Source of the DNA: Elusimicrobiota bacterium
GTDB taxonomy: Bacteria; Elusimicrobiota; Elusimicrobia; FEN-1173
NCBI GenBank assembly: GCA_016715645.1
Contig: JADJZR010000007.1
Span: 116,221-180,220 of the forward strand
Length of the DNA: 64,000 nucleotides
Direction: 5' to 3'
Shown piece by piece: positions 4,973 through 23,423 of this stretch (position 1 is its first letter; each line of letters begins with the position of its first letter). The position numbers and the translations under genes were made by a program. The notes below the pieces were generated by a model, which had not been told where the DNA came from, searched no databases, and saw only the letters and a list, made by a program, of their open reading frames with translations.

Positions 4973-4975
4973 GGA

Positions 4976-5923: not shown

Positions 5924-5951
5924 TTAGAGTGCGCTCCTCTCTGGAAAAACC

Positions 5952-5988
5952 CTTCCGGTCCCCCTTTCGCTGAAAGGGGGACCGGAAG
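5952..5988 (-). terminator. Intra-operon stem-loop with U-tract (attenuator or partial terminator) between GH130 and the permease genes
   Basis: A perfect 16-bp stem, cttccggtcccccttt / aaagggggaccggaag, has a 5-nt loop. On the minus strand it is followed by GGTTTTTCC, then GAGGAG and the ATG of the permease. Confidence 0.6.
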
Positions 5989-5996
5989 CATCAATA

Positions 5997-6923
5997 TCAA
6001 TTGGGGAAGCTGTGGGTCTTGATGAACTGGAGAATGTCGCCGATTTTGGCCTCGGCCATGGAAATACAGGTATCGGCGCAACCGTAATACAAGCGCAGTT
6101 TGTCACCGTCCACCACCGCCGAGCTGGGGAAAACAACGTTCGGAACGTCCCCCACCCGCTCGTACGTTTCCGTGGGCGCCAACAAATAATCCTGAGTTCG
6201 ATAAATGACTTTCCAAGGTTTTTCCAGATCCAAGAGAGCGCCGCCGGCGTAGTAGAGGTAACCGTTGCAACTGGTCCACACGCCGTGATAGATCAGCAAC
6301 CATCCCTCTTTCGTTTCAATGGGCACCGGGCCAGGCCCCACCTTGGTCGACTGCCAGCCGCCCCGGGGTCCAAACACGAAACGGTGATGGCCCCAATGAA
6401 CCAGGTCCGGGCTGGACGCATAAAATACGTCTCCAAAAGGCGTGTGGCCCCGGTCGCTGGGACGATGCAACATGGCGTATTTCCCATTAATTTTTCGGGG
6501 GAAAATGACGCAATTGCGGTTCGCCGTGGCGGTGGGGTTTTCCATTTGGTGATACGTCTTAAAGTCTTTTGTCCACGCCAACCCAATGCACGGCCCCTGG
6601 GCGCCCGCGTTGCACCACGTGACGTAAAACTTGTCCTCCAGCTGAGTCACGCGAGGATCGTAACTGTGGGGGGTCATCACCACTTCCGGATCGTCGCTGA
6701 TCATTTTGATCGGGTTGGGGTCAATGGTCCAATTGATGCCATCTTTGCTGAACCCGGAATGGAGGACGTAATGCATGTTGACTTCGTCCACGCGGAACAC
6801 CCCGGCGTAACCATCCCCAAATCGCACGATCGCGCTGTTGTGGATGCTGTTGGCCCGCGGAACCGCCTTGGCCGTTATAATGGGATTGTTTTTGTACCTC
6901 TGGAATACGGTTTCGTTTGCCAT
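5997..6923 (-). CDS. GH130 family beta-mannoside phosphorylase/glycosidase
   Basis: 308 aa with a GH130-typical N-terminus, FQRYKNNPIITAKAVPRANSIHNSAIVRFGDGYAGVFRVDE. The later blocks YDPRVTQLEDKFYVTW and MLHRPSDRG are typical of this beta-propeller family. Confidence 0.8.
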   Translation of the reverse strand: MANETVFQRYKNNPIITAKAVPRANSIHNSAIVRFGDGYAGVFRVDEVNMHYVLHSGFSKDGINWTIDPNPIKMISDDPEVVMTPHSYDPRVTQLEDKFYVTWCNAGAQGPCIGLAWTKDFKTYHQMENPTATANRNCVIFPRKINGKYAMLHRPSDRGHTPFGDVFYASSPDLVHWGHHRFVFGPRGGWQSTKVGPGPVPIETKEGWLLIYHGVWTSCNGYLYYAGGALLDLEKPWKVIYRTQDYLLAPTETYERVGDVPNVVFPSSAVVDGDKLRLYYGCADTCISMAEAKIGDILQFIKTHSFPN

Positions 6924-6924
6924 G

Positions 6925-8157
6925 TTATTTTTCTATCCTTTCGTTCATCGCTTTGGCCGCATCGGCCAGAAGTTTTTTGGGATCTTCACCCCGGACGACG
7001 GCCTTTTGAATGGCCTCGACCACAAAACGAGTACTGTCGTTCCACCCCAACACCGAAGGGGGCGCTTTGGCTTCACGGGCCTGGGCCACCAACACCTCTT
7101 TCATTTCAGGCTCTATGGGCAAAGAATCCCAGGCCTTCATGTTGGGCGGCATGTAGATATTGTGGCTTTTGGCGACTTCAACGTAAATAGCCTGTTGAAT
7201 ATCTTCCCGTGAAAGAAACTTGATAAATTCCCACGCATCATTTTTTTTGCCGGACCGCTCAAAGATGCCCATCGCCCGGCCACCGATGAATCCCGTCCGC
7301 TTGCCCGACGGACCCGCCATCAACGGAGCAATGGACCACTTGCCGTTCAATTCCGGCGCATCCGCGGGCAAACTGTTTATCAACCAGTTGCCGGAGATTC
7401 CCAAAGGAAAATCTCCCGATCTCATCCCTTGAGCCACGCCCTGACCGGCTTTAGGAACATCGTATTTTCGATACAAGTCCGCGTAGAACGACAACGCTTT
7501 CTCGGCCTCAGGTTGATCCAAGTTGGAACTGGTTTTGTCCGCGTTATAATAATCTCCCCCCGCCTGCCACAGAAAAGGCGCAAACCCAATCCAATCCATA
7601 GATCCCCAATCCATCAGCAACCCTTGTTTTTTTGGCGATAAACGTTTGAGGGTGGCCACCAGATCGTCCCAGGTGGCTGGAGGCGTGGGAACCAAATCTT
7701 TTCGGTAATACAGGAGCTGAAGGGTCATGTCAAACGGAAGGGAATACACGGCCCCCCGGTATTCGACCGCTTCCCAAATGGACGGAAACGTCCCGGCTTG
7801 CAAGGCGCTGAGTTCGTCAGGAAAAGTCTTTCTTAAATCCACCATTTGACCTTTTGACCCGAACTCCGTTCCCCACGTGAGGCCCATGGTCCCGATATCC
7901 GGCGTCACATCGCCGGCCATGGCGGTTAAGTACTTGCTGTGAGCTTCGGCCCAGGCCATGGATTCGCAACGGACATCGATTCCTGTTGCTGGTGTAAATT
8001 TTTCCTGGGCCAGCCGTTGGAGGATTTGGGCCTCCTCTTCCGAACCCACATGCCAAAACAGGACGTGCTTTTTCTCCGCCGGAACCGTTGTGGAAGAACA
8101 CGCCGCCAACCCGGCCATTAACCCAATAGACAAAACAAAACAATTCATATTTCGCAT
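6925..8157 (-). CDS. Extracellular solute-binding lipoprotein of a sugar ABC transporter
   Basis: 410 aa with lipobox LMAGLAAC. SBP family-1-like composition, and the gene directly precedes GH130 and the two permeases. Confidence 0.9.
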   Translation of the reverse strand: MRNMNCFVLSIGLMAGLAACSSTTVPAEKKHVLFWHVGSEEEAQILQRLAQEKFTPATGIDVRCESMAWAEAHSKYLTAMAGDVTPDIGTMGLTWGTEFGSKGQMVDLRKTFPDELSALQAGTFPSIWEAVEYRGAVYSLPFDMTLQLLYYRKDLVPTPPATWDDLVATLKRLSPKKQGLLMDWGSMDWIGFAPFLWQAGGDYYNADKTSSNLDQPEAEKALSFYADLYRKYDVPKAGQGVAQGMRSGDFPLGISGNWLINSLPADAPELNGKWSIAPLMAGPSGKRTGFIGGRAMGIFERSGKKNDAWEFIKFLSREDIQQAIYVEVAKSHNIYMPPNMKAWDSLPIEPEMKEVLVAQAREAKAPPSVLGWNDSTRFVVEAIQKAVVRGEDPKKLLADAAKAMNERIEK

Positions 8158-11171: not shown

Positions 11172-12791
11172 TTATGGGGTCATCCGTTCAAACCATCCGG
11201 CCATCACATCTTCCGCCAGTTTTCCCCGGATGGTTAAATCTTCCGTCACAGGCCGCGTGTTGGTGGGGAAATAATGCCACCAGTAAAATCCCTTAAACCA
11301 GTCCCGCGGCGTTAACTCCCGATACGAAGCCTCAAAACAGTCCGCCTGCTGTTGTCTGTCCTTCACGTTGGTCAACTCGATCCAGGGCTGTTTGCCGGCT
11401 CCTTCCACGCTCGGGTAACCCAACTCCGTGAAAAGGACCGGTTTGCCCAACTTGCTGGAAACCAACCACTGCTGAATCCCTTCGGCGTGCCCTCGCCAAC
11501 CGTCGGTCAGTTCTTTGAGCGTGGGCTTGTTTCCCTCGGCAATGGGAAAATAGGCGTCAATCCCGATGTAGTCCAAAGCGTCCCAGAACGTGACATTTTT
11601 ATACTCATCCCAGTTAGCCGAATACACCAGGGGACCCGAAAATTCGTTCCGCACCTCTTTTATGAGCCGCCGCCAGTTGTCGTCTTGTTCCCAGGTGGTA
11701 GCGCCTTTCAATTCCACCCCCACCGAAAAGGCCTCCACATTGTATTTGTGAGCGAACGCGGCGTACCGCCTAATGAATTTTGTGTAGTTGTTGAACCACG
11801 CCTGTTTGGAAGGATAAAAATCGCCCCGGTAGGTTCCGTCCCGAATGTCCAAGTGGGGCTTGAGGAGAACTTTCATGCCCAGTTCATGGGCTTTGTTGAT
11901 GCAGTAGGCCAGGGCGTAATCCGAGGGTGTCTGACCGCCGAGAGGATTGTCGGGGCCCATTTCCGTTGACGTGGGAGACTCTTGAAACCATGTCACCAAT
12001 AACGCAATATGGCCCACGTGCTTGGATTTGAGCCATTCCATTGTCCGATCGGCCGCGGGGGTGGCCAACTCGGACTCGTGCCAGGATGTCAGGTTAACCC
12101 CGCGATGGAACTCGGTCAGCGTGATCGGGCCTGGGGAAGGCAAAGCTTTTGGCAGTTTGGTGGGCAACGCCGCGGCCGCATCGACTCCGTCGCTTGCCCG
12201 CCAGGGAAAAACTTCCCCAATAGGCTTATCGTCGTGATTTCTAATTTTGAGCCCATAGGCTTCAAATTCCCAAATGGAAACCCCCCAGTTGGGGTTGGCG
12301 CGGCGCAACACCTCCAACCGCAAAAAAGAAGCGGTGGTGGGCTTCACTTTCACTTTTTCTACGCCGCCCACTCCTTTGTCTTGCCGAAAAATTTGGGCCC
12401 ATTTATTGCCATCTTCCGACGAATAGAGCTGGTAAGATTCGGCGTAGGCCCGTTCCCACCGAATCGTCACTTCCGAAACCACTTTGGACGATCCAAATCC
12501 GATAACAATCCATTGAGCGTCCTTGGCGTCCGAAGCCCATCGGGTTTTAAGATTACCGTCGATCAACGCATTGGGATTGGGGTCCGGTGCCCAGGTGGGC
12601 GTCATGTCAAACGACGACACCTTGGCCGAATTCGCTTTCAGATAAACCATGGGCGCCGCCGCTCGGGCGGCCACCGCCCCAGCAACAACAAAAAGAGAAA
12701 GGGTCATCTGACTTATAGTGCGACTGAGCGATGTCATGTGTAGTACTCCATAGGTGTCTGTCCCCTCGAATAAACCAACCGAAGGGGACAC
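11172..12791 (-). CDS. Secreted F5/8-type-C (CBM32) domain + clan GH-A-like (beta/alpha)8 glycoside hydrolase, probable mannan/glycan hydrolase
   Basis: The discoidin block is NALIDGNLKTRWASDAKDAQWIVIGFGSSKVVSEVTIRWERAYAESYQLYSSEDGNKW. The TIM-barrel-like part has FSVGVELKG and VLFTELGYPS (a candidate nucleophile E-x-G). The likely start is M19 (12737), which gives a signal peptide. Confidence 0.7.
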   Translation of the reverse strand: MSPSVGLFEGTDTYGVLHMTSLSRTISQMTLSLFVVAGAVAARAAAPMVYLKANSAKVSSFDMTPTWAPDPNPNALIDGNLKTRWASDAKDAQWIVIGFGSSKVVSEVTIRWERAYAESYQLYSSEDGNKWAQIFRQDKGVGGVEKVKVKPTTASFLRLEVLRRANPNWGVSIWEFEAYGLKIRNHDDKPIGEVFPWRASDGVDAAAALPTKLPKALPSPGPITLTEFHRGVNLTSWHESELATPAADRTMEWLKSKHVGHIALLVTWFQESPTSTEMGPDNPLGGQTPSDYALAYCINKAHELGMKVLLKPHLDIRDGTYRGDFYPSKQAWFNNYTKFIRRYAAFAHKYNVEAFSVGVELKGATTWEQDDNWRRLIKEVRNEFSGPLVYSANWDEYKNVTFWDALDYIGIDAYFPIAEGNKPTLKELTDGWRGHAEGIQQWLVSSKLGKPVLFTELGYPSVEGAGKQPWIELTNVKDRQQQADCFEASYRELTPRDWFKGFYWWHYFPTNTRPVTEDLTIRGKLAEDVMAGWFERMTP

Positions 12792-12919: not shown

Positions 12920-15900
12920 TTACGCCGCGATAAAGGACAGCCTCAAGGAATTGACGTCGGTTTCAATGGACGTTCCCGCTTGCGTTAATTTGCCCAACAT
13001 GTTGATGATGTAAACAAGCAGGTTTTCCCTGGCGAATCCCTCCGGCATGTTGTCAAAGCTAAACCGATTCTCATACATAGAAACAATGGCGATGGTTCCG
13101 GAAGTTAAAATCTTGTGGACAGGAGCCAAACTTCCCACAACACCTCCAAAATCGATTCTCCCATCATCGGTCAAATAGTTGCCCTGATGCACAAAGAATG
13201 TTCCCTGCATGGGCCCCCGAGATTCCACTTGTTGAGCTTTTAGAAAACCCTCCAATTCGCTGGGAGTAATGGACGTGTCTCCGCTCATCAAGAAAAGAGT
13301 AACGGTTGCTTTTTCCTCCGCCTCTCTCAGTTCTTTCTTCCACCGATTGATCCCGTCTTCCCCAGCGGCAGGATCCCAACCCACATTTCCATCCTCACCG
13401 CGAACCACAGGAGCCAACATGAATTGGTGTTGGACGTCGTCCACCCGCCCATTTTCATTATTGCGAGCCGCAATGGTTTGGACGGCGGCTTCGCGACTAT
13501 AGAGGCCAAGGGCATGCGAACGGGATTCATCGCTCATCCCCATTTGGTCAGCCAAAACAGCCAGGGCGATCATTTCGTTCCGTTGACGCTCAGCGGAGTA
13601 ATTGCCCGTGGATGTGCGATTGTGCCCATGGAGGCGCGCCAACGTGAAGGCCACGTCGAGAAAAAGCTTTTGCGCTGTTGGCTTGTTTTTAGGAGTGCGC
13701 GCCCACTGTGTAAATTCACCCAATTCGCCATCGGTCCAGTAAGCGTTGGCACGCAAGAAAACGTCGGCCGTTAAAGTGTCAAATTTTTTGGCAGCGCGCG
13801 CGGCGGGCGGCGCCACAGTTCCTTCCCCCGAATAACGGATGAAGCTGGGAAGAGTGTTTGGCGTTTGCACCGGTTCAACCTTCACGCCCTTTTCCCGCCC
13901 AAATTGTTGGACTGTGGCCGCTGGAACCACTTGGTCGGTCACTGAAAGCAACGCCGGCCTTGTCGGGAATAAAGCGGTATTTCGAACTGTTACTTTGTTC
14001 CCTTCGAACGTAATTGAAATGTTTTCCACTCCTAATACTCGGACTTTCTGGCTGTCTGCCCCAATGACGGTAACTCCGGCACCATCTGCTTGGATAGTCA
14101 TTTTAGAATCCCAGACTACCGTGGGGGTTTCCGAGTCTTTGTCGTACGCCTCCTTGACGTTTTTGACACCTTGCGCAAGGGAGGTTTGTATAACGAGCAG
14201 CTGACCCATGTTTGAGAAAACAACCGCAACATCGTCCACCCCTTCCACGGCAATCTCCCTTTCGGTGTCTGCAACCAAGATTGTATCTTTCGATCCCGTT
14301 GTGGACCCGGCCCCTATCCTTCGGTTTCCATGCTCATCCGTTGGGATGGACTTAACTTTTCTCAAAGCATCAAAACTTCCGATATCAATCCACTCGAAAC
14401 TGCCTGGAACCACGATCCCCTGAACCCCTGAATCTTCTGTTTCAAGAGTCATGGGGACCAGGAGAGCATAGTCGACTGAGTTGTGTACTTGTCTATCTTC
14501 CGTCGGATGCTTAATTTTTGACGGAAACGAATTAAAAATATTACGGGCATTTTCCATTTCACCATCTTGAATCGCCTTGACTAGCGCTTCGTACTTTGCG
14601 AAAAGTTCTGGTTGAAATTTCTCCAAGGCCTTTTCCATCGATTCAATGGAGAAAACCAGCATTCCGGAATTCCAATAACGCGTCGCATCTCCAGTTTCTT
14701 GTTCTTGCACCATTTGTCCCGCTAGCTCTGCCGAAGGTTTTTCAGTGAATAGCTTAATTTTGTATCCAACACCAACTTGGGATTGGGTGTTGGCCTCAAT
14801 CGCTCCAAAGGGGGTCCATTCTGCGGGAGGGGCCACTTCTCCAGTCTTCAAATCGATAGGGTTGATCCCAATGGTCACGATGTTGTTCGCTTTAGGGTCC
14901 TGAGCCAAAGCGATGGCCTTATCCATTGTTCGACGAAATTGTTCCGTATCTGGAATGATATGGTCTGCGGTTAACATCGTGAGGGTGGCATTTGGATTCT
15001 GTTTCTTAATATTGGCCATTGCAAATAAAATGGCGGGAAGAGTGTTCCTTCGGCCCGGCTCAATCAGCAGGTTCTCTAAAGGCATATCCGGTAATTGGTT
15101 TTTTAATGGGGTTTCGACATCCGAGCCGGCAACTATAAAGAAATTCTTTACATCGATAAAACTAGAGAAAGCGCCGCTTATTTTTTCTGTCACCCGACGA
15201 AAAGTAGCTTGGATCATTGTGACGCCCATTCCGCTCAACTCGGATAGGGTTTTGTTAAGCGGCCAAAATCGGGAACTCGCTCCACCCGCCAAGGTAATGG
15301 ACGCGACACGCGTCATGTCCGCGGTGGGCTGATCCGGCGGGGCGCGGGTGTCGGTGTCTGCCGCTTGTTTCTTTATTTTGGCGATCCACCATGCTGGAGA
15401 GGATGTAACGTCAGGAAGCCCGAGCAGGAAATCGAATGTGCTCTGAACTCCTTTCCACCAGTCGACGCGATATATTTCTTGACTTAAAACAATTGGCAAC
15501 AGCCACGCGGGAGTTTCGGGGCGGACAGTGATGCTGGCGGTCGTATCGGTTCGGGTTGTTTCAGCAAACCACCGGGCGTCTGTTGGTCTTCCAAATTTAA
15601 CGGTCACAGTTCTTTTGCCGATTTTTAATGTGGCTTCGTTAGAGTTTTGGTCAAAAGTGGGGTCGTAAGAGAACCGCCTGAATCCGTCAGCAAGATCTTT
15701 TATGTTACCCTCTCCTTCAAAAGGCACCTTAAGAGCCCTGTAGGCCATTAACGCAACCCCGGTGTAGGGCAATGCAATCACCGCCAACAGGCCCAGAGAC
15801 CAAATCAGCAACCCTCCAACAAAAGGAATTGCGTTTGCAACGAAAATGAAACCAACCCCCGTTGCGAATACAATGGAGGGTATTCCCACCGCCAACTTTC

Positions 15901-18900
15901 TTGCCGTGGAGTAGGGCTTTGCGATCAAAGGTTTCACACCGGTTTCGGATGCAGAGAGGAACGCCGTTTCTTTTTCTTTGGCGGGCAATTTAGCGAAATC
16001 CACGATTTGTAAGAGGACACCCCTCCCTTGCGTTCGACCCAAAGCTTCCCTTTCCGCTTCGGAAACCCCCTCCGTAGCCTCTCCGCGAGAAAGCCTGCCC
16101 GCCTGGTTAGCCCGAGATTTGCCCCTCTCAGGCGTGGTAAAGAAATATTGCCGAATTTCTTTGTCATTTCCCGATCCACGGAAGTTAACCACTTCTCCAT
16201 CTGCAAGATAACATTTAATTCCAGTTTTAAAGTTCATGCGAACGATGGGAGAATCGGCTAAAACGTTGGCTAACATCCCCTCCAGCAACCTTTTCTTGCC
16301 AACCATTAATTTAGCTTCATCGCTCTCGGCATTCCACACTTTAATTTGGTCTTTATTGTCATCGAGAAGAACAACGGAACCGTCGTTACTGAATTCCACC
16401 CACACAGCCTTGTCCACGATAATCCCATTTGTTGTGGGTGAGAATGTATTCTGCATGATCGCATTAAATTCTTTTTGATGTTCTCCGAATTCATAGCGCA
16501 CAACCGAAGACTCACCGGGTAAAGGGCGAACATCGTTATCGACTATGTCAAGAAGGTCCCTTTTCTTTTCACCGGCCAGGGACAGAACAGCCAGTTCAAC
16601 CACGGTCGCGTCTCTCGTGGGAACAGCCTCAAGATTTCCAATTTTTGTTGCCGTTAAAAATCCTCCGTTCGCTTCCCCACCAACCACCATGTCATATTGC
16701 CCCCCTTCGACGGCTGCGTTCATGGAAGCAATAACATACGGAGACCCCACGTCCGTTAAAGCCACCGTAAAACCTTCGCGCTCAAGGTAAGCCACAACCC
16801 CGGGATTCACTGTGTTTGGCAAGGAAATGTGGGGATTTCTTGCGCCGCTCTTCTCTTTTAAGTAGACCGCCGTCAATGCCACCAGGACATCGCCAGGGAC
16901 AAACCGGAAAGAAATTTGATCCCCGTTTCGGACGACAACCAAAACGAGCGGTCTGTCAGAATCGCCGTCAGTGGAAAAAATGTAGCGCACCGTATCGTTC
17001 AGGTTGAGTTGTCTGAAAATAGCCAAAATCCTGTTCAACTGTTCCTGTGTAATACCTTCGGTATCAACCGGAACAAAATCATCAGTTGCGCCAAAACCAA
17101 CGACCGTGGAGATTCCCTTTTCAACCTTGGAACGATTAAGAAAAACTCGCACAATGTTCTGGACCATTTCACGCCCAACAGCGGAATGTTCGTAGAAGGC
17201 GGCACTGGGAAGACCAGCCACGGGGCCAAAAAATCGACTGTAGCGCCGTTCGGACGTTTCCCTTGCCTCTTTCTGATAGTCCCTGATTTGGTCTGGTCTT
17301 GGTACACGGGTGGGTTTCAACAGACCGTAATCGTCAAATTGAGAATCTTGGAGGGTCCGGCGATACACTAATTCACTTATTTTTTCAGCGGTTAATCTGG
17401 CGATCGTAGCGTTGTCATCTGGAGTTGTTTCTCCGACAGCGCTCCCCCCTTTCATTCCATTAAGCCCCGTTTTGATATGACTTCCAGTCACCATAAAAAA
17501 CAGGCCCTTTGCCTGCATTGCAACGTAGGTCAAAAATGGCGTTGGGATTCTTCCGCAGTAGAAGGGTTGACCTTCCATGTCAAGGATCGCGCGGGCCACG
17601 GCGGTCTCCATCCGTTTGGTGGAGGGCCGATTGTCTCCGCCAAAATAAATTTGGCTGCCGGTTTCACTTCCAAGATGAGAAAAATGGGTGCGCGCTACGG
17701 CGTAGGCGGCAAGATCGGTTAACTCGTGCTCGGGCCCACGCACACCGCTGGTCCCAAATGCGGGATAATTTGGGAAATAAATCATGGCTTGGATTAAATT
17801 CTGGGCCTCCCGACGGCGGAGTTCTGGGATCAACATTTTAAGATTTGTTCCCCGAGGAACCGTTTTTTTACTAAGGTAGGAAGTCACACCTTGGGAAACT
17901 ATCCTCTGTTTGGTTTCCCCCGTGAGTTTAATGTTAGCGTAGGAGGCCAAGAGATCGTATTTATTTTTTTCTTGAGATGAAACTATTTTAACCATAAACA
18001 TATGGATCGACATGGCCTGATCAGCGATACCTCTCATGTGATCTGTTTGTCCCTGGTACATCATGGCATGGAAAAACTGGCGGGACCTTTCTCCCAGGCT
18101 CGACCCTAAATATTCTCGGCTGTATTGGTCGTTTAGCAGGTTGCCAACTTCGGCGACGTACGCCTCGGCCATTTTTGAGTCTTCCAGGGCGAGACTGTTG
18201 AGCGAACCAACCACGTCGTCAACGCGTCCCTCGCGCAGGTCCACCACAAGCTGCCGAATCCCAGGAAGCTCAATTTGACCTAATGCAAAATCAATGCTTA
18301 GGGCGGTTTTAAGGGCACCCTGGACGTCTTCAAGTACCCGTCTCGTTCGAATCAATCGCCCCCTGTATGGATTTCCGATTAGACCGGCACCCGCGACAGC
18401 AGCATCCAAGCTTAATATGGCCCTTCCAAGGCTATCCACTTGGTCTTGGTAGGCTTTTTTCCTGTCGGTCTCCGTGTCGTTACTATGCGCACTAACGAAA
18501 CGACTCAAGGTGACAAAAAGTTTTTGAGAATAATTGGGATCCTTAGCGATCTGGGCAATGTCCAGGACGAACGCATCCGGCTTTCTTGGATCGGGTTTCG
18601 TGGTCTCGCTTGCGGCCAAACGAAGGTCTTGAATCCACGTGGAACCTTGTTGAGGAATCGCTTTGATTAATCGGAGAAGATCCCCGACAAATTCGTTCCA
18701 GTTGTTGTCCATTGAAGGTTCACCCAACGAAGGATTCATTCTTCTGAAAATTTGGGCCCCACGTGATTTTGTTGCGCCAAGAACAATCAATTCGAGTGCC
18801 GCCTGTTCAGGCTTCCCCGTTTTGATAAGGGATAAAATATCTTCAGCCGCCTTAGGTACGTCAACAACTGGTTGGATTAAATCGCTACCTACCATAACGC

Positions 18901-20920
18901 TGTTTATATTATTAAGCGATTTGATTAAATTATTCAATTGGCCGGCAATTTCGCCTGTCCCAAAAACCCCGTTTCTTTGCAAATTATCAGCAAAGGAAAT
19001 AAAGTTGGACCGATATTCAACCCACTCAGCCCGAAGTTCGCCTGATCTCATCCCTATAAGCCTGAGGATATCTGCACGCTCTGCTTGTTCTATACGCCCA
19101 AAATTAGAGGCAATAGCATTAACTTCCTCATCGGTTGTGGCCAACGCCAACCGCACAATAAAAGAATTGGCAATCCTCGTCTTTTCCGATTGCGCCATCC
19201 CACCCTGGGCTACGTAACCACTGTCTACCCTAGGAGGATTGCCAGCATTATCGTAACCCAGGATTTCCCCACTCGAAATTTGTCGACTGGTTTCGCGTAT
19301 GAGCCGAATAGTATAAGGACGGACAAACAACCCTTGAATATCAACAGAAGAAATCCCGGCACTTTCAAGATTATTGATGACCAGTCCGGCAACATCAATA
19401 ACGTCCCCTAAATTGCCGTCCCGTTGCAATTCAAAAAGACCACTAACTAAACGACCTACACCCACAACAAAACCTCTTTGTTCAATTGCCCCGGAATTGA
19501 GCTGTTGTTGGAGCGTTTGAAGTTCCTCAAAGATTTCCTTCGCCTTGTCCTCTTTGGCTTGGTAAGGCATTCCGTCCATGGCCATGGGTTGCACTGGAAC
19601 GGTGGCTCTGAAAAGAGTTGCTTCTCCTTTTGTGGAAACTATTCTGTATCCAATTCCTTTGGGAACCATGACCGTCTGTCCACGAGTCAGAGTTAATTTA
19701 CTCCCATCATCCATTTGGAGCAGTAAAGGCATTTCCGCTTCAAGGACGATTAAAGTTTCAACATCGTGATATGGGGGTTGATTGTGGTTTTGCCCCATTG
19801 CAATATTTATCCGACTCAACTGAAATTCAGGCACGTCTCCGAGTTCGCGGTAAACTGTTTCTGTTTCCGCCACCTGAACCCCATCCCGCACCAACGGAGG
19901 TTCGCCTTGGAAAACCACGGTGTTCATCAGTTCAGGAACGTCCACATGCTTTGGCGTCAAACCACCGCGAAGAACGTTGTTCGAGTTGGCCATGATTTCC
20001 ATTCCGACCCCATCCAGATACGCATGGGGCACACCCGCACTCAAATACATGGCCTGCCCTGGATTCAAACGAATAAGGTTTAACAGATATACCGAAAACA
20101 CCCCCCGATCGTGGTGTCCCTCTGTAGAAAACTCAGCATCCGAACGAAGAACCCAGTATTCGGCTGAGTTTTTGGGAAACGGGGTCTTATTGTTAACCTC
20201 ACGCAACCGCTGGATTAGGGGAGATAAAATGGTGTTTACTTGTTCTTGGGGAAGCCCCATTATATTCCCATAAAGAGTTTTTAAATTCCCTTCAGACGGC
20301 ACTGAAACAAAATCAGTTGCTCCTTGAATGGTCATCAGTTCCGCATTTGCATTGATCGCCCCTGCAATTTCGTTTAACGGCCTGAAACCTCGAAGACCAT
20401 AAAATTCGGTCACCGCAACGATCAGTTCCGGTTTGTGATTGGGATCTTTGTAATTCCGATTTCCAGCCCTAACATCTATCCCTTCTTGATTTTCCCTATC
20501 AAATCCAGCTTGCGCTTGCTCCGCGTTCGGGTGCACCTGGATGGAGAGAGGTTTGCCCGCCGCCAACACCTTAAAGAGGAATGGCAGTTGTCCGTTGTAA
20601 AGTCCCCGAGCGTGGGGAGACATGATCCCCTCTCCGGCCCGCTCGACCAAACGACCCATATCGATCTTTGTGCTTTTAGGCAAAATAGCCGTTGAGGGGA
20701 GATCCGGATGGGCTCCTATCCAGACCTCCGCATATGGGCTATCGCCCGCTGGAATGCCCAACAGATTCGGGATAAACGCATCTTCTCCCCGTTGTCCCCA
20801 AGCGTAATTTTGGACCCCCGTTTCGAGAATTACGGGGTAAGGTCTGGCGGCATATTCCTCTAAAATGCGAGCCTTTTGGCGAAAATTAAAAAATGTTTTC
20901 GATGTCGGAACCTTTCCCAA
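12920..20920 (-). CDS. Giant multidomain protein: type I phosphomannose isomerase + unknown ~600 aa + phosphomannomutase + 2 TM helices + mannose-1-phosphate guanylyltransferase + unknown ~400 aa
   Basis: Uninterrupted 2666 codons. PMI motifs: LSIQVHPN, YKDPNHKPE, VPHAYL, EIMANSNNVLRGGLTPK. Phosphohexomutase motifs: FGTSGVRG, TGSHIK, FSTDGDSDR, GGEANGG, RGSGNDKEIRQYF. TM segment at aa 1676-1728. GMP motifs: ITLAGGASSRFWPL, LIEPGRRNTLPAI, LTADHII, WNSGMLVF, EWIDIGSF. Confidence 0.9.
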   Translation of the reverse strand: MGKVPTSKTFFNFRQKARILEEYAARPYPVILETGVQNYAWGQRGEDAFIPNLLGIPAGDSPYAEVWIGAHPDLPSTAILPKSTKIDMGRLVERAGEGIMSPHARGLYNGQLPFLFKVLAAGKPLSIQVHPNAEQAQAGFDRENQEGIDVRAGNRNYKDPNHKPELIVAVTEFYGLRGFRPLNEIAGAINANAELMTIQGATDFVSVPSEGNLKTLYGNIMGLPQEQVNTILSPLIQRLREVNNKTPFPKNSAEYWVLRSDAEFSTEGHHDRGVFSVYLLNLIRLNPGQAMYLSAGVPHAYLDGVGMEIMANSNNVLRGGLTPKHVDVPELMNTVVFQGEPPLVRDGVQVAETETVYRELGDVPEFQLSRINIAMGQNHNQPPYHDVETLIVLEAEMPLLLQMDDGSKLTLTRGQTVMVPKGIGYRIVSTKGEATLFRATVPVQPMAMDGMPYQAKEDKAKEIFEELQTLQQQLNSGAIEQRGFVVGVGRLVSGLFELQRDGNLGDVIDVAGLVINNLESAGISSVDIQGLFVRPYTIRLIRETSRQISSGEILGYDNAGNPPRVDSGYVAQGGMAQSEKTRIANSFIVRLALATTDEEVNAIASNFGRIEQAERADILRLIGMRSGELRAEWVEYRSNFISFADNLQRNGVFGTGEIAGQLNNLIKSLNNINSVMVGSDLIQPVVDVPKAAEDILSLIKTGKPEQAALELIVLGATKSRGAQIFRRMNPSLGEPSMDNNWNEFVGDLLRLIKAIPQQGSTWIQDLRLAASETTKPDPRKPDAFVLDIAQIAKDPNYSQKLFVTLSRFVSAHSNDTETDRKKAYQDQVDSLGRAILSLDAAVAGAGLIGNPYRGRLIRTRRVLEDVQGALKTALSIDFALGQIELPGIRQLVVDLREGRVDDVVGSLNSLALEDSKMAEAYVAEVGNLLNDQYSREYLGSSLGERSRQFFHAMMYQGQTDHMRGIADQAMSIHMFMVKIVSSQEKNKYDLLASYANIKLTGETKQRIVSQGVTSYLSKKTVPRGTNLKMLIPELRRREAQNLIQAMIYFPNYPAFGTSGVRGPEHELTDLAAYAVARTHFSHLGSETGSQIYFGGDNRPSTKRMETAVARAILDMEGQPFYCGRIPTPFLTYVAMQAKGLFFMVTGSHIKTGLNGMKGGSAVGETTPDDNATIARLTAEKISELVYRRTLQDSQFDDYGLLKPTRVPRPDQIRDYQKEARETSERRYSRFFGPVAGLPSAAFYEHSAVGREMVQNIVRVFLNRSKVEKGISTVVGFGATDDFVPVDTEGITQEQLNRILAIFRQLNLNDTVRYIFSTDGDSDRPLVLVVVRNGDQISFRFVPGDVLVALTAVYLKEKSGARNPHISLPNTVNPGVVAYLEREGFTVALTDVGSPYVIASMNAAVEGGQYDMVVGGEANGGFLTATKIGNLEAVPTRDATVVELAVLSLAGEKKRDLLDIVDNDVRPLPGESSVVRYEFGEHQKEFNAIMQNTFSPTTNGIIVDKAVWVEFSNDGSVVLLDDNKDQIKVWNAESDEAKLMVGKKRLLEGMLANVLADSPIVRMNFKTGIKCYLADGEVVNFRGSGNDKEIRQYFFTTPERGKSRANQAGRLSRGEATEGVSEAEREALGRTQGRGVLLQIVDFAKLPAKEKETAFLSASETGVKPLIAKPYSTARKLAVGIPSIVFATGVGFIFVANAIPFVGGLLIWSLGLLAVIALPYTGVALMAYRALKVPFEGEGNIKDLADGFRRFSYDPTFDQNSNEATLKIGKRTVTVKFGRPTDARWFAETTRTDTTASITVRPETPAWLLPIVLSQEIYRVDWWKGVQSTFDFLLGLPDVTSSPAWWIAKIKKQAADTDTRAPPDQPTADMTRVASITLAGGASSRFWPLNKTLSELSGMGVTMIQATFRRVTEKISGAFSSFIDVKNFFIVAGSDVETPLKNQLPDMPLENLLIEPGRRNTLPAILFAMANIKKQNPNATLTMLTADHIIPDTEQFRRTMDKAIALAQDPKANNIVTIGINPIDLKTGEVAPPAEWTPFGAIEANTQSQVGVGYKIKLFTEKPSAELAGQMVQEQETGDATRYWNSGMLVFSIESMEKALEKFQPELFAKYEALVKAIQDGEMENARNIFNSFPSKIKHPTEDRQVHNSVDYALLVPMTLETEDSGVQGIVVPGSFEWIDIGSFDALRKVKSIPTDEHGNRRIGAGSTTGSKDTILVADTEREIAVEGVDDVAVVFSNMGQLLVIQTSLAQGVKNVKEAYDKDSETPTVVWDSKMTIQADGAGVTVIGADSQKVRVLGVENISITFEGNKVTVRNTALFPTRPALLSVTDQVVPAATVQQFGREKGVKVEPVQTPNTLPSFIRYSGEGTVAPPAARAAKKFDTLTADVFLRANAYWTDGELGEFTQWARTPKNKPTAQKLFLDVAFTLARLHGHNRTSTGNYSAERQRNEMIALAVLADQMGMSDESRSHALGLYSREAAVQTIAARNNENGRVDDVQHQFMLAPVVRGEDGNVGWDPAAGEDGINRWKKELREAEEKATVTLFLMSGDTSITPSELEGFLKAQQVESRGPMQGTFFVHQGNYLTDDGRIDFGGVVGSLAPVHKILTSGTIAIVSMYENRFSFDNMPEGFARENLLVYIINMLGKLTQAGTSIETDVNSLRLSFIAA

Positions 20921-23423
20921 TAGGAAGCAGGGTCGTCACGCCGAAAACCAGGTTTGTTGCCGCGAAAGCCTGCAGGGCCGAACTGTCAACACCCGCCCAT
21001 ATCAATAGGCCCGCTAAAGCCGCAAAAAATATGTTGGCCAGGGGCCCCGCAATAGCCACCCAGGCGTTATTTCGAAACCCCAGGTCATCCGTTTGAGCCC
21101 AAACGCCCTCTCGACCGAACATTAACTTTCCACTCTTGCCACCCAAGAAAGAATAAACCCCCAAATGGCCGGCAACTTCGTGCAACAACACACCAAGCAG
21201 GCCAAAAACTCCCACCGATACTAAAGCGGCATAGGTTAAGCCAAAAATGGAAACAGACGCGGCCACGACACCAAGCCCACCAATCACCAGTTGCCCAGTT
21301 TTCATGAAATTTCGAGTCTGTGTGGCCTCGGTTGAAGGCGGTCTGTTCTGTCCTGAAAACAGGTCGACAACTTTTGCGACGAGCGCCATCGGAGAAAAAT
21401 AACTCGCGATGCCTCTTTCCTCAACATAAATCGCAAAATTACTGACTTTGCCCGAGAAAGCGGCGACCAATTTTCCTAATCTGCCTTTATTTTCGCTCCC
21501 TTCCCCAACGGCGACCGAAACCTGTCTGCCTTCAGTTTTCGTGAAATACACACCTCCATCACTACTCTCAACTTCCGATTGGCTCAAAGCTTCAACTGCG
21601 GGAGTCGTTTGCTTGCCCCCGAGAGCCGCAAGCGTCAGTTTTAAAAGCGCTTTAACGGATTCAGCTGCCCTCTCGTAGCCAGGTGTGGCGATTTTGACAG
21701 AAGCGTTGATCGATGCTTTGGTGGTGATTTTCTCTTGGGTGAACAATTTTTCCAGTGCGGGGCGATCTTTTAGGAAATCCAGGTAATGGGAATCGGAAGA
21801 AACTTCCGTGAGCGTGGGGGTGAACACCACGTAAGACACTTTTCCTTTTTTCAACAAATCGGTCATGCCTTGGGTGTGGAAACCGCCGGCTAACAGAAGG
21901 CCGGTTTTTTGGTTTGTTTCTTTCATTTTAGCTAACAGGTTGTTGACCAACGTTTCGTCACGTTTTAAGGCCGCTTGGCAAAACCCTTCAAAAGAAACCA
22001 GGTCTTTGGGCAAGTCGCCCTTATAGTTGTCCGCCCCCGGGGCTATTTGGTCCATACGGGCGGCCATGTTCATGACGCGGTCCCGTGTCCGTTGATAAAT
22101 TTCCCAGTCTCGGGGCGCCATTTTGAACGCCGTCAGGTTAGCCAGGCTGTGCAGGTCTTGGGCCAGCTCATACACAGCCCGCTCGTCCGCGGACCGGACA
22201 AGGGTCGAGGCCACTTGGTCTTGGATCATGTCCAGCTCTTCCAGCAGAGCTTCCGGTTTGATTTGTTCCGATGCCAACACATACTTTATATAGGACGCCA
22301 TGGCCGGAAACCGGGACAGGGACACACCCCGAGCCTCGCAAATGGTTTGAAGCGAATCGTAATATGCCCCATAGGTCAAGTGGCCGGACTTATAAAGAAG
22401 AGTGCGCTGGACCAGCGCGGAAATTTCTTTTTCCGACAGGGCCTTGGTGAGACTTTCAATCAGTCGGGTTCGTTCTCGTTCCACGTCGGCAAAATCGATG
22501 CCTTTTTCCATGGCCAAACACTTTTTGAACGCCGCCATCGCGGGATACTTTTTCTCAATTTTCACCGACTTTTCCATAAGAGCCACAAAGTCCGGTAAGG
22601 GCATTGAATCGGTGCGGTAACGGGCCTGGGCCTCATCAAAACTCTTTAGCGCGGGAGAATACACCTTCGGTTTCGCCTGGGACAGACGGTATTCCCAGCT
22701 TTTAATCCGGTCTTGCACCCGCTGTTGGATAGGCAGGGACTCTTTAAAGGAGTTGAGATTTTTCAAATAAACGTTGACCTCTTCAATTCCCCAGAGGGTG
22801 GGTTCTTTTTCCATGGTCCAGCCCGCGTGCTCGCCGCCGCCAATCAAATGTTCCTGCAGAAAGAAATCCGCCACATCTCCAATGACCGCTTGGTTGGGGA
22901 AGGTCCGATAAGGAACCAAATCAAACGCTCCCGTCGCTCCCTCCAATCCAACCAGAGACACGGCCCCTGTGTTGACCACTTCGCTGATCAGTCCGGAAAT
23001 GTTCATTTGGGCTTCCCGTTGTTCGTGGACGTCTTGGATGTGGACCACAAGCGGGCGGTCCGAGGCGTTGGGCGCGAAATAGGCGGCGGAAATGCTTCCG
23101 TGAGCCGACGAAATATTGTTGAGCCAAGCGGGCATCAACTTAATTTGTTCGGGCGACAACACCGATCGTGCCGCCAACATATGCGCCTGCCCCCCACCGG
23201 CGGAGCCGGCCATGGCGGAATCAAAGGACCCCACCAAAGGAAGCGCATCAGCCAAAGCGCCCTGGGCCCCAGGGGCCATAGCGTATTGAACGCCCTGGCC
23301 GGTCGAATTTTTTGTCCGAGCGGCGTCGCGCCGTTCTTTCCAAAAATTGGCTTCCACCAACGGTGCGGACACCGTCGAAAACAAAAACGCGATCCCCACG
23401 AACGCGGCAATAAATTTTTTCAT
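20886..23423 (-). CDS. Secreted Tiki/ChaN-like protein (paralogue of 1846..4053) with a C-terminal M50/site-2-protease-like membrane module
   Basis: 845 aa with signal peptide MKKFIAAFVGIAFLFSTVSAPLVEA. Paralogy blocks are as listed for 1846..4053. The C-terminal ~145 aa are hydrophobic and carry LLHEVAGH (HExxH inside a TM helix, nt 21165-21182) and NLVFGVTTLLPIGKGSDIENIF (N..LLP..x.D-type second M50 motif). It overlaps the giant gene start by 35 nt. Confidence 0.8.
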   Translation of the reverse strand: MKKFIAAFVGIAFLFSTVSAPLVEANFWKERRDAARTKNSTGQGVQYAMAPGAQGALADALPLVGSFDSAMAGSAGGGQAHMLAARSVLSPEQIKLMPAWLNNISSAHGSISAAYFAPNASDRPLVVHIQDVHEQREAQMNISGLISEVVNTGAVSLVGLEGATGAFDLVPYRTFPNQAVIGDVADFFLQEHLIGGGEHAGWTMEKEPTLWGIEEVNVYLKNLNSFKESLPIQQRVQDRIKSWEYRLSQAKPKVYSPALKSFDEAQARYRTDSMPLPDFVALMEKSVKIEKKYPAMAAFKKCLAMEKGIDFADVERERTRLIESLTKALSEKEISALVQRTLLYKSGHLTYGAYYDSLQTICEARGVSLSRFPAMASYIKYVLASEQIKPEALLEELDMIQDQVASTLVRSADERAVYELAQDLHSLANLTAFKMAPRDWEIYQRTRDRVMNMAARMDQIAPGADNYKGDLPKDLVSFEGFCQAALKRDETLVNNLLAKMKETNQKTGLLLAGGFHTQGMTDLLKKGKVSYVVFTPTLTEVSSDSHYLDFLKDRPALEKLFTQEKITTKASINASVKIATPGYERAAESVKALLKLTLAALGGKQTTPAVEALSQSEVESSDGGVYFTKTEGRQVSVAVGEGSENKGRLGKLVAAFSGKVSNFAIYVEERGIASYFSPMALVAKVVDLFSGQNRPPSTEATQTRNFMKTGQLVIGGLGVVAASVSIFGLTYAALVSVGVFGLLGVLLHEVAGHLGVYSFLGGKSGKLMFGREGVWAQTDDLGFRNNAWVAIAGPLANIFFAALAGLLIWAGVDSSALQAFAATNLVFGVTTLLPIGKGSDIENIF

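What the first reader, a model, noticed from the sequence alone, without database searches (positions are those of the whole stretch)
12920..20920. One 8-kb ORF fuses the whole GDP-mannose pathway (type I PMI + PMM + GMP) with two unknown domains and an internal membrane anchor
Seen in the sequence: a single uninterrupted ORF of 2666 codons.
- aa 25-445 (nt 19586-20848) carry type I phosphomannose isomerase signatures: YAWGQ, EVWIGAHP, LSIQVHPN, YKDPNHKPE, VPHAYL, EIMANSNNVLRGGLTPK.
- aa 1051-1600 (nt 16121-17770) carry every alpha-D-phosphohexomutase signature: FGTSGVRG, catalytic-Ser loop TGSHIK, Mg loop FSTDGDSDR, sugar loop GGEANGG, phosphate loop RGSGNDKEIRQYF.
- aa 1676-1728 (nt 15737-15895) are two hydrophobic helices.
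- aa 1870-2265 (nt 14126-15313) carry mannose-1-P guanylyltransferase signatures: ITLAGGASSRFWPL, LIEPGRRNTLPAI, LTADHII, FTEKPS, WNSGMLVF, SVDYALL, EWIDIGSF.
- aa 446-1050 (helical-looking) and aa 2266-2666 match nothing I recognise.

Established knowledge: these three activities are the consecutive steps Fru-6-P -> Man-6-P -> Man-1-P -> GDP-Man. Bifunctional type II PMI-GMP enzymes (AlgA/XanB type) are known. I know of no described protein that joins a type I PMI, a PMM and a GMP, or that places a membrane anchor between PMM and GMP.

Inference: this is a membrane-tethered GDP-mannose production line. The unknown domains may be scaffold, regulatory or glycan-handling parts.
Basis: partly seen in the sequence, partly recalled or inferred. 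Interest (0 to 1): 0.9.

Follow-up and report, generated by a model that had tools for sequence, protein, structure and literature searches.

The report
Membrane-anchored mannose enzyme fusion, frameshift-split
The 8-kb ORF is real but is only the rear three-quarters of a 3,500-residue membrane-anchored protein that strings three mannose-phosphate enzymes together at the head of a mannan-digestion gene cluster, and it belongs to a very large, undescribed family of giant modular proteins.

Summary
The 2666-codon ORF and all quoted motifs are present. Profile searches recover type I PMI, phosphomannomutase and mannose-1-P guanylyltransferase in that order.

The ORF is not a whole gene. The overlapping upstream ORF (20886-23423, 845 aa) is 90% identical to residues 1-846 of a 3497-aa orthologue in an Elusimicrobiota MAG. 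One extra base (A at 20894) separates the two frames, so the real gene is about 12920-23423 (about 3500 aa, about 7 TM helices).

In five loci, including a rearranged GMP-PMM-PMI relative, such genes directly precede GH113 mannanase genes. In four of these plus the window, an ABC importer and a GH130_2 mannoside phosphorylase follow. Orthologues lacking the GMP module sit in the same locus.

The best reading is therefore a membrane-tethered mannose-1-P hub: PMM and PMI feed Fru-6-P, and GMP optionally makes GDP-mannose. It is not a dedicated biosynthetic line.

The N-terminal roughly 570 aa define a family of at least 7483 clusters of giant polytopic proteins. Their C-termini are conserved and end in Ala. 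The centre of this gene looks like a swapped cassette.

The two "unknown" domains remain unassigned.

The parts
12920..23423 (-). Reconstructed complete gene, about 3500 aa, interrupted in this assembly by a 1-nt insertion
   Evidence: The upstream ORF is 90% identical to P0002 aa 1-846. ORF aa 1-619 align to P0002 aa 836-1443. The junction peptide ...GSDIENIF|NFRQKARI... is collinear with P0007 and L001.
20886..20897 (-). Frameshift site: GAAAAC[A]TTTTTTAA. The extra A at 20894 creates the TAA stop at 20886-20888 for the upstream frame.
   Evidence: Pairwise DNA alignment with the syntenic locus L001. Six relatives (P0002-P0007) are single ORFs across the N-module/PMI boundary. The junction peptide was read for P0004 and P0007, and for P0002 from the L001 DNA.
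23349..23423 (-). N-terminal hydrophobic helix (aa 1-25), followed by the family-invariant NFWxERR motif
   Evidence: Hydropathy. Charge flanks are 2 K/R before the helix and 5 after it. E, W and R are nearly invariant in alignment A1.
21714..23156 (-). N-module (aa ~90-570): conserved leader domain of a giant-protein family, with motifs HIQDxH, LEG and GGFH. Possibly a remote member of the Tiki/ChaN/TraB superfamily.
   Evidence: 7483 representative clusters at E<=1e-3. Invariant columns. AF2 pLDDT is 70-90. Weak PF04187 hits in 4 of 19 members. No significant PDB fold match.
20889..21299 (-). Four-helix TM bundle (aa 709-835) carrying HEVAGH, AGPLAN and LLPIGKGSD. Tentatively site-2-protease (M50)-like.
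   Evidence: Hydropathy. Motifs are invariant in 4 relatives. Foldseek gives SpoIVFB 8vjl_A prob 0.89 and E 0.8, and MjS2P 3b4r prob 0.72. Sequence profiles are negative.
19586..20848 (-). Type I phosphomannose isomerase module (ORF aa 25-445)
   Evidence: Pfam and NCBIfam hits. 2wfp matches at E 3e-64, with the Gln/His/Glu/His zinc-ligand motifs identical.
17771..19585 (-). Linker (ORF aa 446-1050). Unassigned, looks helical by eye (not computed here), variable in length and fast-evolving.
   Evidence: No Pfam or PDB hit. Identity to all relatives is 20-29% over full-length residues 1401-1800. The linker is about 90-100 aa in P0007 (PMI alignment ends at 1436, PMM alignment starts at 1529) and absent in the roughly 1500-aa PMI-PMM family. 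No tandem repeats.
16121..17770 (-). Phosphomannomutase module (ORF aa 1051-1600), Brucella 4hjh-type subfamily
   Evidence: PGM_PMM_I and III. 4hjh matches at E 2e-43. The Ser loop (TGSHI), Mg loop (STDGDxDRP), sugar loop (EANGG) and phosphate loop (SGN) all align.
15737..15889 (-). TM hairpin (ORF aa 1678-1728)
   Evidence: Hydropathy. The turn is uncharged and the flanks are K/R-rich. The block is conserved in P0002-P0006.
15314..15736 (-). Small conserved domain after the hairpin (ORF aa 1729-1869), function unknown
   Evidence: 33-51% identical in P0002, P0003, P0004 and P0006, including relatives without GMP. AF2 pLDDT is only 60-76.
14126..15313 (-). Mannose-1-phosphate guanylyltransferase module (ORF aa 1870-2265)
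   Evidence: PF00483 scores 55.7 bits. TIGR01479 GMP part. PDB 2x5s E 1e-23. Foldseek 2cu2 E 6e-9.
12923..14125 (-). C-terminal region (ORF aa 2266-2666). It comprises beta-rich continuation, a helical part, and a family-wide C-terminal module (last ~140 aa, 12923-13342) ending ...SFIAA.
   Evidence: 79-85% identical to P0003 and P0004. 111 of 132 N-module proteins end in Ala. hhalign links the C-terminal clusters: cQ-c4 89%, cQ-c0 53%, aligned to within five residues of the C-terminus. No PDB hit.
11172..12791 (-). GH113 endo-beta-mannanase with an F5/8 type C (discoidin-type, galactose-binding-like) domain, next gene downstream
   Evidence: Pfam. PDB 4cd6 and 3civ at E 5e-32. Synteny in L001, L004, L005, L006 and L008.
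4106..8157 (-). Solute-binding protein (6925-8157), GH130_2 mannoside phosphorylase (5997-6923) and two ABC permeases (4976-5923, 4106-4972)
   Evidence: Pfam. The GH130 matches 4udg at E 8e-115 and 5ayd at E 5e-109. Conserved synteny.

Best explanation
The ORF is the enzyme-bearing part of a single gene of about 3500 aa (12920-23423, minus strand) from an Elusimicrobiota bacterium.

Shown:
- The layout is: N-terminal helix, conserved N-module, 4-TM bundle, type I PMI, variable helical linker, PMM, TM hairpin, small domain, GMP, C-terminal module.
- In this assembly the gene is split by one inserted base at 20894.
- The three enzyme modules keep their catalytic motifs.
- The gene heads a conserved beta-mannan utilisation locus.

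Inferred mechanism:
1. GH113 cuts mannan outside the cell.
2. The ABC system imports manno-oligosaccharides.
3. The GH130_2 phosphorylase releases alpha-mannose-1-phosphate.
4. The membrane-tethered fusion converts Man-1-P through PMM and PMI to fructose-6-phosphate. This pair is kept in every orthologue.
5. In variants with the GMP module, such as this one, part of the Man-1-P goes directly to GDP-mannose.

All large domains probably lie on the cytoplasmic face.

The protein is one member of a very large family of giant polytopic proteins. These share the N-module and a C-terminal module ending in Ala, and carry exchangeable enzyme cassettes between them.
For: Gene boundary:
- Upstream ORF and orthologue alignments.
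- Intact orthologues of 3165-3948 aa come from separate assemblies.

Enzyme identity:
- Pfam and NCBIfam hits.
- PDB alignments with conserved catalytic motifs.

Context:
- GH113, SBP, GH130 and permeases lie downstream in the window.
- The same order is found in L001, L004, L005 and L006.
- P0004 and P0007 lack GMP yet keep the locus.
- The rearranged N-module-GMP-PMM-PMI protein P0051 (31% identity) also precedes two GH113 genes.
- The GH130 is close to characterised mannoside phosphorylases.

Precedent: the Roseburia intestinalis mannan locus encodes GH113, GH130, a PMM and a PMI. These were shown biochemically to convert M1P to M6P to F6P (PMC6385246).

Topology: seven hydrophobic helices, uncharged short turns, and K/R-rich flanks next to all long domains.

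Family:
- N-module search.
- The N-module starts within the first 100 residues in 143 of 149 hits.
- C-terminal Ala in 111 of 132 and hhalign links between C-terminal clusters.
- Mosaic identity profile: 96%, then 22-43%, then 83-93%.
Against: - No expression, activity or read data exist.
- The direction of flux cannot be read from sequence. PMI, PMM and GMP are also the biosynthetic route.
- A terminator-like hairpin lies between the gene and GH113 (12845-12864), so co-transcription is unproven.
- As assembled, the gene is frameshifted. A neighbouring gene carries a second uncompensated frameshift, so the locus could be decaying.
- The N-terminal helix looks like a signal peptide, and the even TM counts would then put every domain outside the cell. 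The positive-inside argument is only a rule of thumb.
- The homology of the window's own C-terminus to the family module rests on hhalign probabilities of 89% and 53% only.
Confidence: 0.62

Rival explanations
1. This is a dedicated biosynthetic GDP-mannose assembly line. Fru-6-P is channelled through PMI, PMM and GMP to GDP-mannose at the membrane for envelope glycan synthesis.
For: All three consecutive enzymes are present with intact motifs. The GMP module is retained in the window, P0002 and P0005. Independent fusions of the same three activities occur in other orders: P0051, and P0064 with a ROK kinase. This suggests selection for the complete pathway.
Against: No glycosyltransferase or GDP-mannose-consuming gene was found next to the gene. 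Instead a mannan-degrading and import locus is conserved there. Orthologues at the same position lack GMP, so GDP-mannose cannot be the conserved end product.
Confidence: 0.2
2. This copy is an inactivated gene. The frameshift is genuine, and the 2666-codon ORF is an untranslated or poorly translated remnant.
For: There is an uncompensated +1 insertion at 20894. I see no Shine-Dalgarno-like sequence before the only candidate start, TTG at 20920 (the SD assessment is my reading). A second uncompensated -1 at about 10834 splits the neighbouring 234-aa gene. A second giant gene at 1846-4053 also continues in another frame. An IS element and a replaced segment lie just upstream.
Against: 2666 codons stay open downstream of the shift, and every catalytic motif is intact. 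Any inactivation would therefore be very recent. Both confirmed indels sit next to homopolymer runs, which is the typical signature of consensus errors in assemblies. A +1 slip on AUU-UUU-UAA would restore the exact orthologous reading (inference).
Confidence: 0.15
3. This is a polyprotein. The embedded HExxH membrane module, or another protease, cuts the giant precursor and releases separate PMI, PMM and GMP enzymes.
For: The HEVAGH, AGPLAN and LLPIGKGSD motifs are invariant in four relatives. Foldseek resemblance to SpoIVFB and MjS2P has prob 0.89 and 0.72. Cleavage of giant proteins by built-in peptidases has been proposed for Omnitrophota giants (10.1101/2023.11.21.568195).
Against: Foldseek E-values are about 1 on a model region with pLDDT 55-65. 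Profile searches against PDB and Pfam are negative. P0005 carries the same enzymes without these motifs. No cleavage sites are known.
Confidence: 0.12
4. The protein is an extracytoplasmic enzyme array. The N-terminal helix is a Sec signal, and with 4+2 further TM helices all domains face the periplasm or exterior.
For: The N-terminus is signal-peptide-like, and the number of later TM helices is even. Similar metabolic domains of Omnitrophota giants were predicted to be extracellular.
Against: GTP and sugar phosphates are cytoplasmic metabolites (established knowledge). The K/R distribution favours a cytoplasmic location. A conserved basic NFWxERR motif directly follows the helix. The authors of those predictions themselves doubted them.
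Confidence: 0.05

Closest known systems
Orthologue P0002 (3497 aa) in MAG 'Elusimicrobiota bacterium isolate EBPR_ori4bin.9' (GCA_041917295.1, contig JAYRXX010000057.1)
   Same: It has the same domain order, the same flanking mannan locus, 96% identity over the first 400 aa and 83-93% over the last 300 aa.
   Different: It is uninterrupted. Its central roughly 1900 aa (linker, PMM, hairpin, GMP) are only 22-43% identical to the window and resemble P0005 instead, which is a mosaic pattern.
Mannan-utilisation locus MULL of Roseburia intestinalis (RiGH113, RiGH130_2, RiPgm, RiGH1_D2 PMI; PMC6385246)
   Same: GH113, a GH130 phosphorylase, an ABC importer, a PMM and a PMI are encoded together. Conversion of M1P to M6P to F6P was shown biochemically.
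   Different: There the PMM and PMI are separate soluble proteins with no GMP. Here they are fused, membrane-anchored, and joined to a GMP and to N- and C-terminal modules.
Bifunctional type II PMI-GMP enzymes (AlgA/XanB/ManC, TIGR01479)
   Same: The GMP module aligns to the N-terminal guanylyltransferase part.
   Different: TIGR01479 matches only profile positions 3-354 of 467 and scores below its cutoff. No type II PMI family appears in the Pfam output. The PMI here is type I and lies about 1400 residues upstream.
PMI-PMM fusion family of about 1500 aa (e.g. Haliangium ochraceum protein P0030, annotated 'mannose-6-phosphate isomerase, class I')
   Same: Type I PMI is directly followed by a four-domain PMM. 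Identity is 33-48% in both modules.
   Different: These proteins have no N-module, linker, TM hairpin or recognisable GMP. They carry a different, unassigned C-terminal region of about 550 aa.
Multi-enzyme, membrane-anchored giant proteins of Omnitrophota (bioRxiv 10.1101/2023.11.21.568195 and 10.64898/2026.06.07.730766)
   Same: Many metabolic enzyme domains, PGM/PMM among them, are strung between TM helices in one polypeptide. Extracellular CAZymes are encoded nearby.
   Different: Those studies treat proteins of at least 10,000 aa in another phylum. I found no mention of a PMI-PMM-GMP unit, of this N-module, or of the C-terminal Ala module in the passages read.

Membership tests
Type I phosphomannose isomerase (PF20511 / TIGR00218) | Profile match above the curated cutoff | tested here: met
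   PF20511 scores 107.7 bits against a cutoff of 22. TIGR00218 scores 200.5 against 116.2.
Type I phosphomannose isomerase (PF20511 / TIGR00218) | Zinc-ligand motifs (Gln/His in LSIQVHPN, Glu in HKPE, His in PHAYL) | tested here: met
   The motifs are identical in the alignment to Salmonella PMI 2wfp. The ligand assignment is from my knowledge of the family.
Type I phosphomannose isomerase (PF20511 / TIGR00218) | Man-6-P / Fru-6-P isomerase activity | not testable with these tools
   This needs an enzyme assay.
alpha-D-phosphohexomutase (PMM/PGM) | Four-domain architecture | tested here: inconclusive
   Pfam domains I and III are above cutoff. Domains II and IV were not called in the window protein, although the alignment to 4hjh spans residues 10-453 of that 481-residue chain.
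alpha-D-phosphohexomutase (PMM/PGM) | Catalytic Ser loop, Mg loop, sugar loop and phosphate loop | tested here: met
   TGSHI, STDGDSDRP, GEANGG and RGSGN align to the same loops of Brucella PMM 4hjh.
Mannose-1-phosphate guanylyltransferase (NTP_transferase fold) | Profile match and the GGxxxR...EP..RNT...DH...EKP...NSG signature | tested here: met
   PF00483 scores 55.7 against 21.2. PDB 2x5s E 1e-23. Foldseek 2cu2 E 6e-9. Motifs located.
Mannose-1-phosphate guanylyltransferase (NTP_transferase fold) | Specificity for GTP and Man-1-P | not testable with these tools
   This needs an enzyme assay.
Bifunctional type II PMI-GMP (TIGR01479) | C-terminal type II PMI cupin domain, with whole-protein score above cutoff | tested here: not met
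   The score is 142.8 bits against a cutoff of 372.95, and only profile positions 3-354 of 467 are matched.
Beta-mannan utilisation locus (MULL-like) | Co-located mannanase, oligosaccharide ABC importer, GH130 phosphorylase, PMM and PMI | tested here: met
   Synteny is conserved in four other loci.
Beta-mannan utilisation locus (MULL-like) | Induction by mannan and co-transcription | not testable with these tools
   No expression data exist. A weak terminator-like hairpin lies at 12845-12864.
Site-2 protease (peptidase M50) | HExxH and NxxPxxxxDG motifs in TM helices, plus a profile match | tested here: inconclusive
   HEVAGH and AGPLAN are present. The third motif is a variant, LLPIGKGSD. Foldseek prob is 0.89 but E is 0.8. 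Pfam M50 reaches E 4.8 in 1 of 4 members, and the PDB profile search is negative.
Tiki/ChaN/TraB superfamily (for the N-module) | Paired GxxH-type motifs with a conserved Glu, plus a profile or fold match | tested here: inconclusive
   HIQDxH, LEG and GGFH are invariant. PF04187 hits 4 of 19 members, all below cutoff (best E 2e-4), and TraB hits 1 of 19. There is no significant PDB fold hit.
Omnitrophota-type multi-enzyme giant proteins | Several distinct enzyme families tiled in one TM-anchored polypeptide | tested here: met
   Three enzyme families and about 7 TM helices.
Omnitrophota-type multi-enzyme giant proteins | Length of at least 10,000 aa and Omnitrophota origin, as catalogued in the preprints | tested here: not met
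   The protein is about 3500 aa. The nearest relatives are Elusimicrobiota.

The most novel reading that the evidence does not exclude
The N-module and the Ala-terminated C-terminal module may define a general, previously undescribed 'chassis'. It would be used by Elusimicrobiota, Omnitrophota and relatives to hang interchangeable enzyme cassettes on the cytoplasmic membrane, with cassettes swapped by recombination between conserved ends. The PMI-PMM-GMP cargo would be the first case in which the cargo's pathway and its genomic partner, a mannan import and phosphorolysis locus, are both readable. That would make the function of the whole family experimentally approachable.
Probability: 0.35. 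Interest if true: 0.8.

Novelty: new variant of a known kind. Interest (0 to 1): 0.62.

Why it matters
- **Rare fusion type.** This is a natural fusion of three consecutive sugar-phosphate enzymes with membrane anchors, placed beside the importer and phosphorylase that would supply its substrate. Such an arrangement is a candidate for substrate channelling and a ready-made design for engineered GDP-mannose or mannan-conversion modules.
- **Readable cargo in a dark family.** The protein gives an interpretable cargo to a family of at least 7483 clusters of giant membrane proteins that are otherwise almost entirely without annotation.
- **Annotation warnings.** One base can hide a quarter of a giant gene. 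Database names such as 'mannose-6-phosphate isomerase, class I' conceal multi-enzyme architectures.

Tried and rejected
Searches that added little:
- Word-seeded homologue searches with the C-terminal 401 aa and with the N-module returned only 1 and 3 proteins.
- The window protein is not on record by exact look-up, and neither is P0030.
The single-protein scan found only the known MAG plus one Planctomycetia locus.
- Two metagenome scans, one with the linker protein and one with the junction DNA allowing or omitting the extra base, found nothing. The frameshift therefore could not be checked against another assembly.

Structure prediction:
- AF2 of ORF aa 1661-2666 with 6 sequences failed, with mean pLDDT 46. 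Its fold search recovered only the GMP fold.
- PDB sequence and profile searches of the C-terminus, the TM bundle, the P0030 tail and the second giant gene's continuation were all empty.
- The AF2 model of the N-module was reasonable, but Foldseek found no significant PDB match.

Ideas rejected:
- Assembly chimera. The same architecture occurs in four other assemblies.
- Programmed frameshifting as a conserved feature. All relatives are in frame.
- Tandem-repeat origin of the linker.
- tRNA or Rfam features in the window.

Not obtained: no topology predictor was available, so topology rests on hydropathy and charge counts.
Full report
**Observation**

The minus-strand ORF 12920..20920 has 2666 codons. 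At the local base composition, the chance of no stop over that length is about 1e-61.

Profile searches place the domains as follows:
- Type I PMI: PF20511 at aa 32-182, and TIGR00218 at aa 33-425 above its cutoff.
- Phosphohexomutase: PGM_PMM_I at aa 1054-1178 and PGM_PMM_III at aa 1343-1464.
- Nucleotidyltransferase: PF00483 at aa 1875-2190, matching the GMP half of TIGR01479.

The nearest solved structures are Salmonella PMI 2wfp (E 8e-63), Brucella PMM 4hjh (3e-40) and Thermotoga GMP 2x5s (1e-23). The PMI zinc-ligand motifs are identical to those of 2wfp. The four PMM loops align to 4hjh. The unusual TGSHI serine loop is a trait of that subfamily, not a defect.

**The ORF is not the whole gene**

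All close relatives (P0002-P0007, 3165-3948 aa) carry 760-980 residues in front of the PMI. In the window, the ORF just upstream (20886..23423, 845 aa) overlaps the big ORF by 35 nt. It is 90% identical to residues 1-846 of P0002, and it also matches the N-termini of P0003-P0007.

The two frames join as ...GSDIENIF | NFRQKARI.... This is collinear with ...GSDIENFFNFRQRARI... in the syntenic locus L001 and with the equivalent stretch of P0007. The only difference is an extra A at 20894, in GAAAAC[A]TTTTTTAA.

The reconstructed protein is 3500 aa, against 3497 aa for P0002. The listed TTG start has no evident ribosome-binding site (my reading).

A second uncompensated indel (-1 at about 10834) splits the neighbouring 234-aa gene into ORFs 10708-11145 and 10442-10825. 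A second giant gene, at 1846-4053, also continues in another frame. Both confirmed indels lie next to homopolymer runs. I think consensus error is more likely than decay, but two metagenome scans found no second copy against which to check.

**Organism and reality of the architecture**

The syntenic contig belongs to 'Elusimicrobiota bacterium isolate EBPR_ori4bin.9'. Other relatives are named Elusimicrobia/Elusimicrobiota.

The rest of the window is ordinary chromosome. It contains a dcw cluster with ftsA/ftsZ, aromatic amino-acid genes and a GH57 branching enzyme.

Intact genes with the order N-module, PMI, PMM (and optionally GMP) occur in four other assemblies. This excludes a chimera.

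**Anatomy**

Hydropathy gives seven hydrophobic helices. In full-length numbering they are:
- an N-terminal helix at residues 1-25;
- a four-helix bundle at 711-834;
- a hairpin at 2512-2562, which is ORF aa 1678-1728.

The short turns carry no K or R, whereas the flanks next to every long domain are K/R-rich. This favours all soluble domains lying on the cytoplasmic side. That placement fits their substrates, but it is only an inference.

The four-helix bundle carries HEVAGH, AGPLAN and LLPIGKGSD, all invariant in four relatives. These motifs resemble site-2 proteases. Foldseek gives SpoIVFB prob 0.89 and MjS2P prob 0.72, but with E about 1. Sequence profiles are negative. This assignment stays tentative.

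The linker (ORF aa 446-1050) has no match and no repeats. It is the fastest-evolving part, and it is short or absent in relatives.

The hairpin and the roughly 140-aa domain after it are conserved even in relatives without GMP.

The C-terminal 346 aa are 79-85% identical to P0003 and P0004 but have no PDB relative. The AF2 model of this half was too poor to use, with mean pLDDT 46. Only its GMP part found a fold match.

**Context and function**

Directly downstream, on the same strand, lie the following genes:
- a GH113 mannanase with an F5/8 type C (discoidin-type) carbohydrate-binding-like domain;
- small unknown genes;
- an fn3 protein;
- a solute-binding protein;
- a GH130 enzyme;
- two ABC permeases.

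The GH130 is very close to the characterised mannoside phosphorylases UhgbMP and RaMP2 (E 8e-115 and 5e-109). The GH113 resembles endo-beta-1,4-mannanases.

The same gene order follows the orthologues P0002, P0005, P0007 and P0004. P0004 and P0007 have no GMP module. P0051 is only about 31% identical and is ordered N-module, GMP, PMM, PMI. It also precedes two GH113 genes and follows a LacI regulator. The Omnitrophota protein P0064 (ROK-PMM-GMP-PMI) shows no such neighbours in the part of its contig that is available.

In Roseburia intestinalis, a mannan locus encodes GH113, GH130, a PMM and a PMI. Those enzymes were shown to convert the phosphorolysis product M1P to M6P and then F6P (PMC6385246).

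The best-supported reading is therefore a Man-1-P hub for imported manno-oligosaccharides. PMM plus PMI form the conserved catabolic core, and GMP is an optional shunt to GDP-mannose. A purely biosynthetic line remains possible but fits the context less well.

**A much larger family**

The first roughly 570 residues of the upstream ORF hit 7483 representative clusters at E<=1e-3, and 2362 at E<=1e-30.
- The module starts within the first 100 residues in 143 of 149 top hits.
- The median protein length is 2258 aa and the maximum is 7806 aa.
- The median number of hydrophobic blocks per protein is 12.

Invariant motifs are HIQDxH, LEG and GGFH. Pfam gives only sub-threshold ChaN/TraB (Tiki superfamily) hits.

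The AF2 core (pLDDT 70-90) is an alpha/beta unit with a long helical insertion. It has no significant PDB match.

Two such genes lie in the window (20886-23423 and 1846-4053, 27% identical). A third lies in L001.

Of 132 family members of at least 1400 aa, 111 end in Ala, usually as -QA, -AA or -SA. The figure is 10 of 60 for proteins without the module. Profile-profile comparison links the C-terminal roughly 140-aa clusters, mostly aligned through to the C-terminal end. The window's cluster is included, at 89% and 53% probability.

Cargo in 21 sampled members is mostly Pfam-dark.

**Mosaicism**

Against P0002 the window protein is 96% identical over residues 1-400 and 82-91% up to residue 1200. 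Identity falls to 22-43% from 1400 to 3200, then returns to 83-93% at the end. There is no DNA match across 13987-19389, although the flanks are 86-90% identical.

P0002's centre resembles P0005 instead. P0002 and P0003 are near-identical except where GMP is present or absent. This pattern suggests cassette exchange between conserved ends.

**Literature**

Preprints describe membrane-anchored multi-enzyme giant proteins in Omnitrophota that include PGM/PMM domains. My searches found no description of a PMI-PMM-GMP fusion. None of the passages read mentions this N-module or the C-terminal module.

**Verdict**

This is a real, conserved fusion. It is mis-bounded in this assembly and is most likely tied to mannan use. 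It is a new variant within a recently recognised class.

Noticed in passing
window 1846-4053 (-) and 1-2100 (-): A second N-module gene (735-aa ORF) is 27% identical to the first. Its frame ends at 1846, while another frame stays open for 690 codons to the window edge. That frame contains a CVFC...HLHWH (HIT-like, my reading) stretch and TM helices. The L001 counterpart is one 2040-aa gene with HAD and aldo-keto-reductase hits. This may be another frameshift.
   Followed up: partly
window 10442-11145 (-): The gene that is 226-234 aa in relatives, with a weak mannan-binding-domain hit (Mann_GBD_bact), is split here into two overlapping ORFs. The cause is a 1-nt deletion at about 10834 next to a C-run, relative to L001.
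   Followed up: yes
window 23436-29617: This is a variable segment between the helicase gene and the giant gene. It holds unknown ORFs (23742-25130, 26740-28050), an rve-type transposase (26265-27575) and an AbiEii toxin gene on the plus strand (28599-29369). L001 has a third N-module giant (2352 aa) at this position. L006 has almost nothing there: only a 115-aa ORF lies between the helicase and the giant gene.
   Followed up: partly
window 13988-19389 versus flanks: The divergent central cassette of the giant gene has G+C 0.486. The conserved ends are 0.526 and the downstream locus is 0.533. The window as a whole rises to 0.60-0.64 between 42 and 62 kb.
   Followed up: partly
family-wide (P0072-P0219) and window 12923-12925: The last residue is Ala in 111 of 132 N-module proteins, usually after a hydrophobic or amphipathic stretch. 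This is reminiscent of C-terminal recognition tags, but no function was tested.
   Followed up: partly
P0008-P0062 (e.g. P0030, Haliangium ochraceum): A widespread family of about 1500 aa joins type I PMI directly to PMM. It carries an unassigned tail of about 550 aa whose sequence looks nucleotidyltransferase and beta-helix-like by eye. No profile or PDB support was obtained.
   Followed up: partly
window 12845-12864 (-): A weak terminator-like hairpin lies in the 128-nt gap between the giant gene and the GH113 gene. Its presence leaves co-transcription open.
   Followed up: no
window 50337-52735 (-): The mechanically listed FtsZ ORF is 585 aa and its tubulin domain starts at aa 223. It overlaps the ftsA ORF by about 600 nt, so its true start is probably well downstream of the listed GTG.
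   Followed up: no
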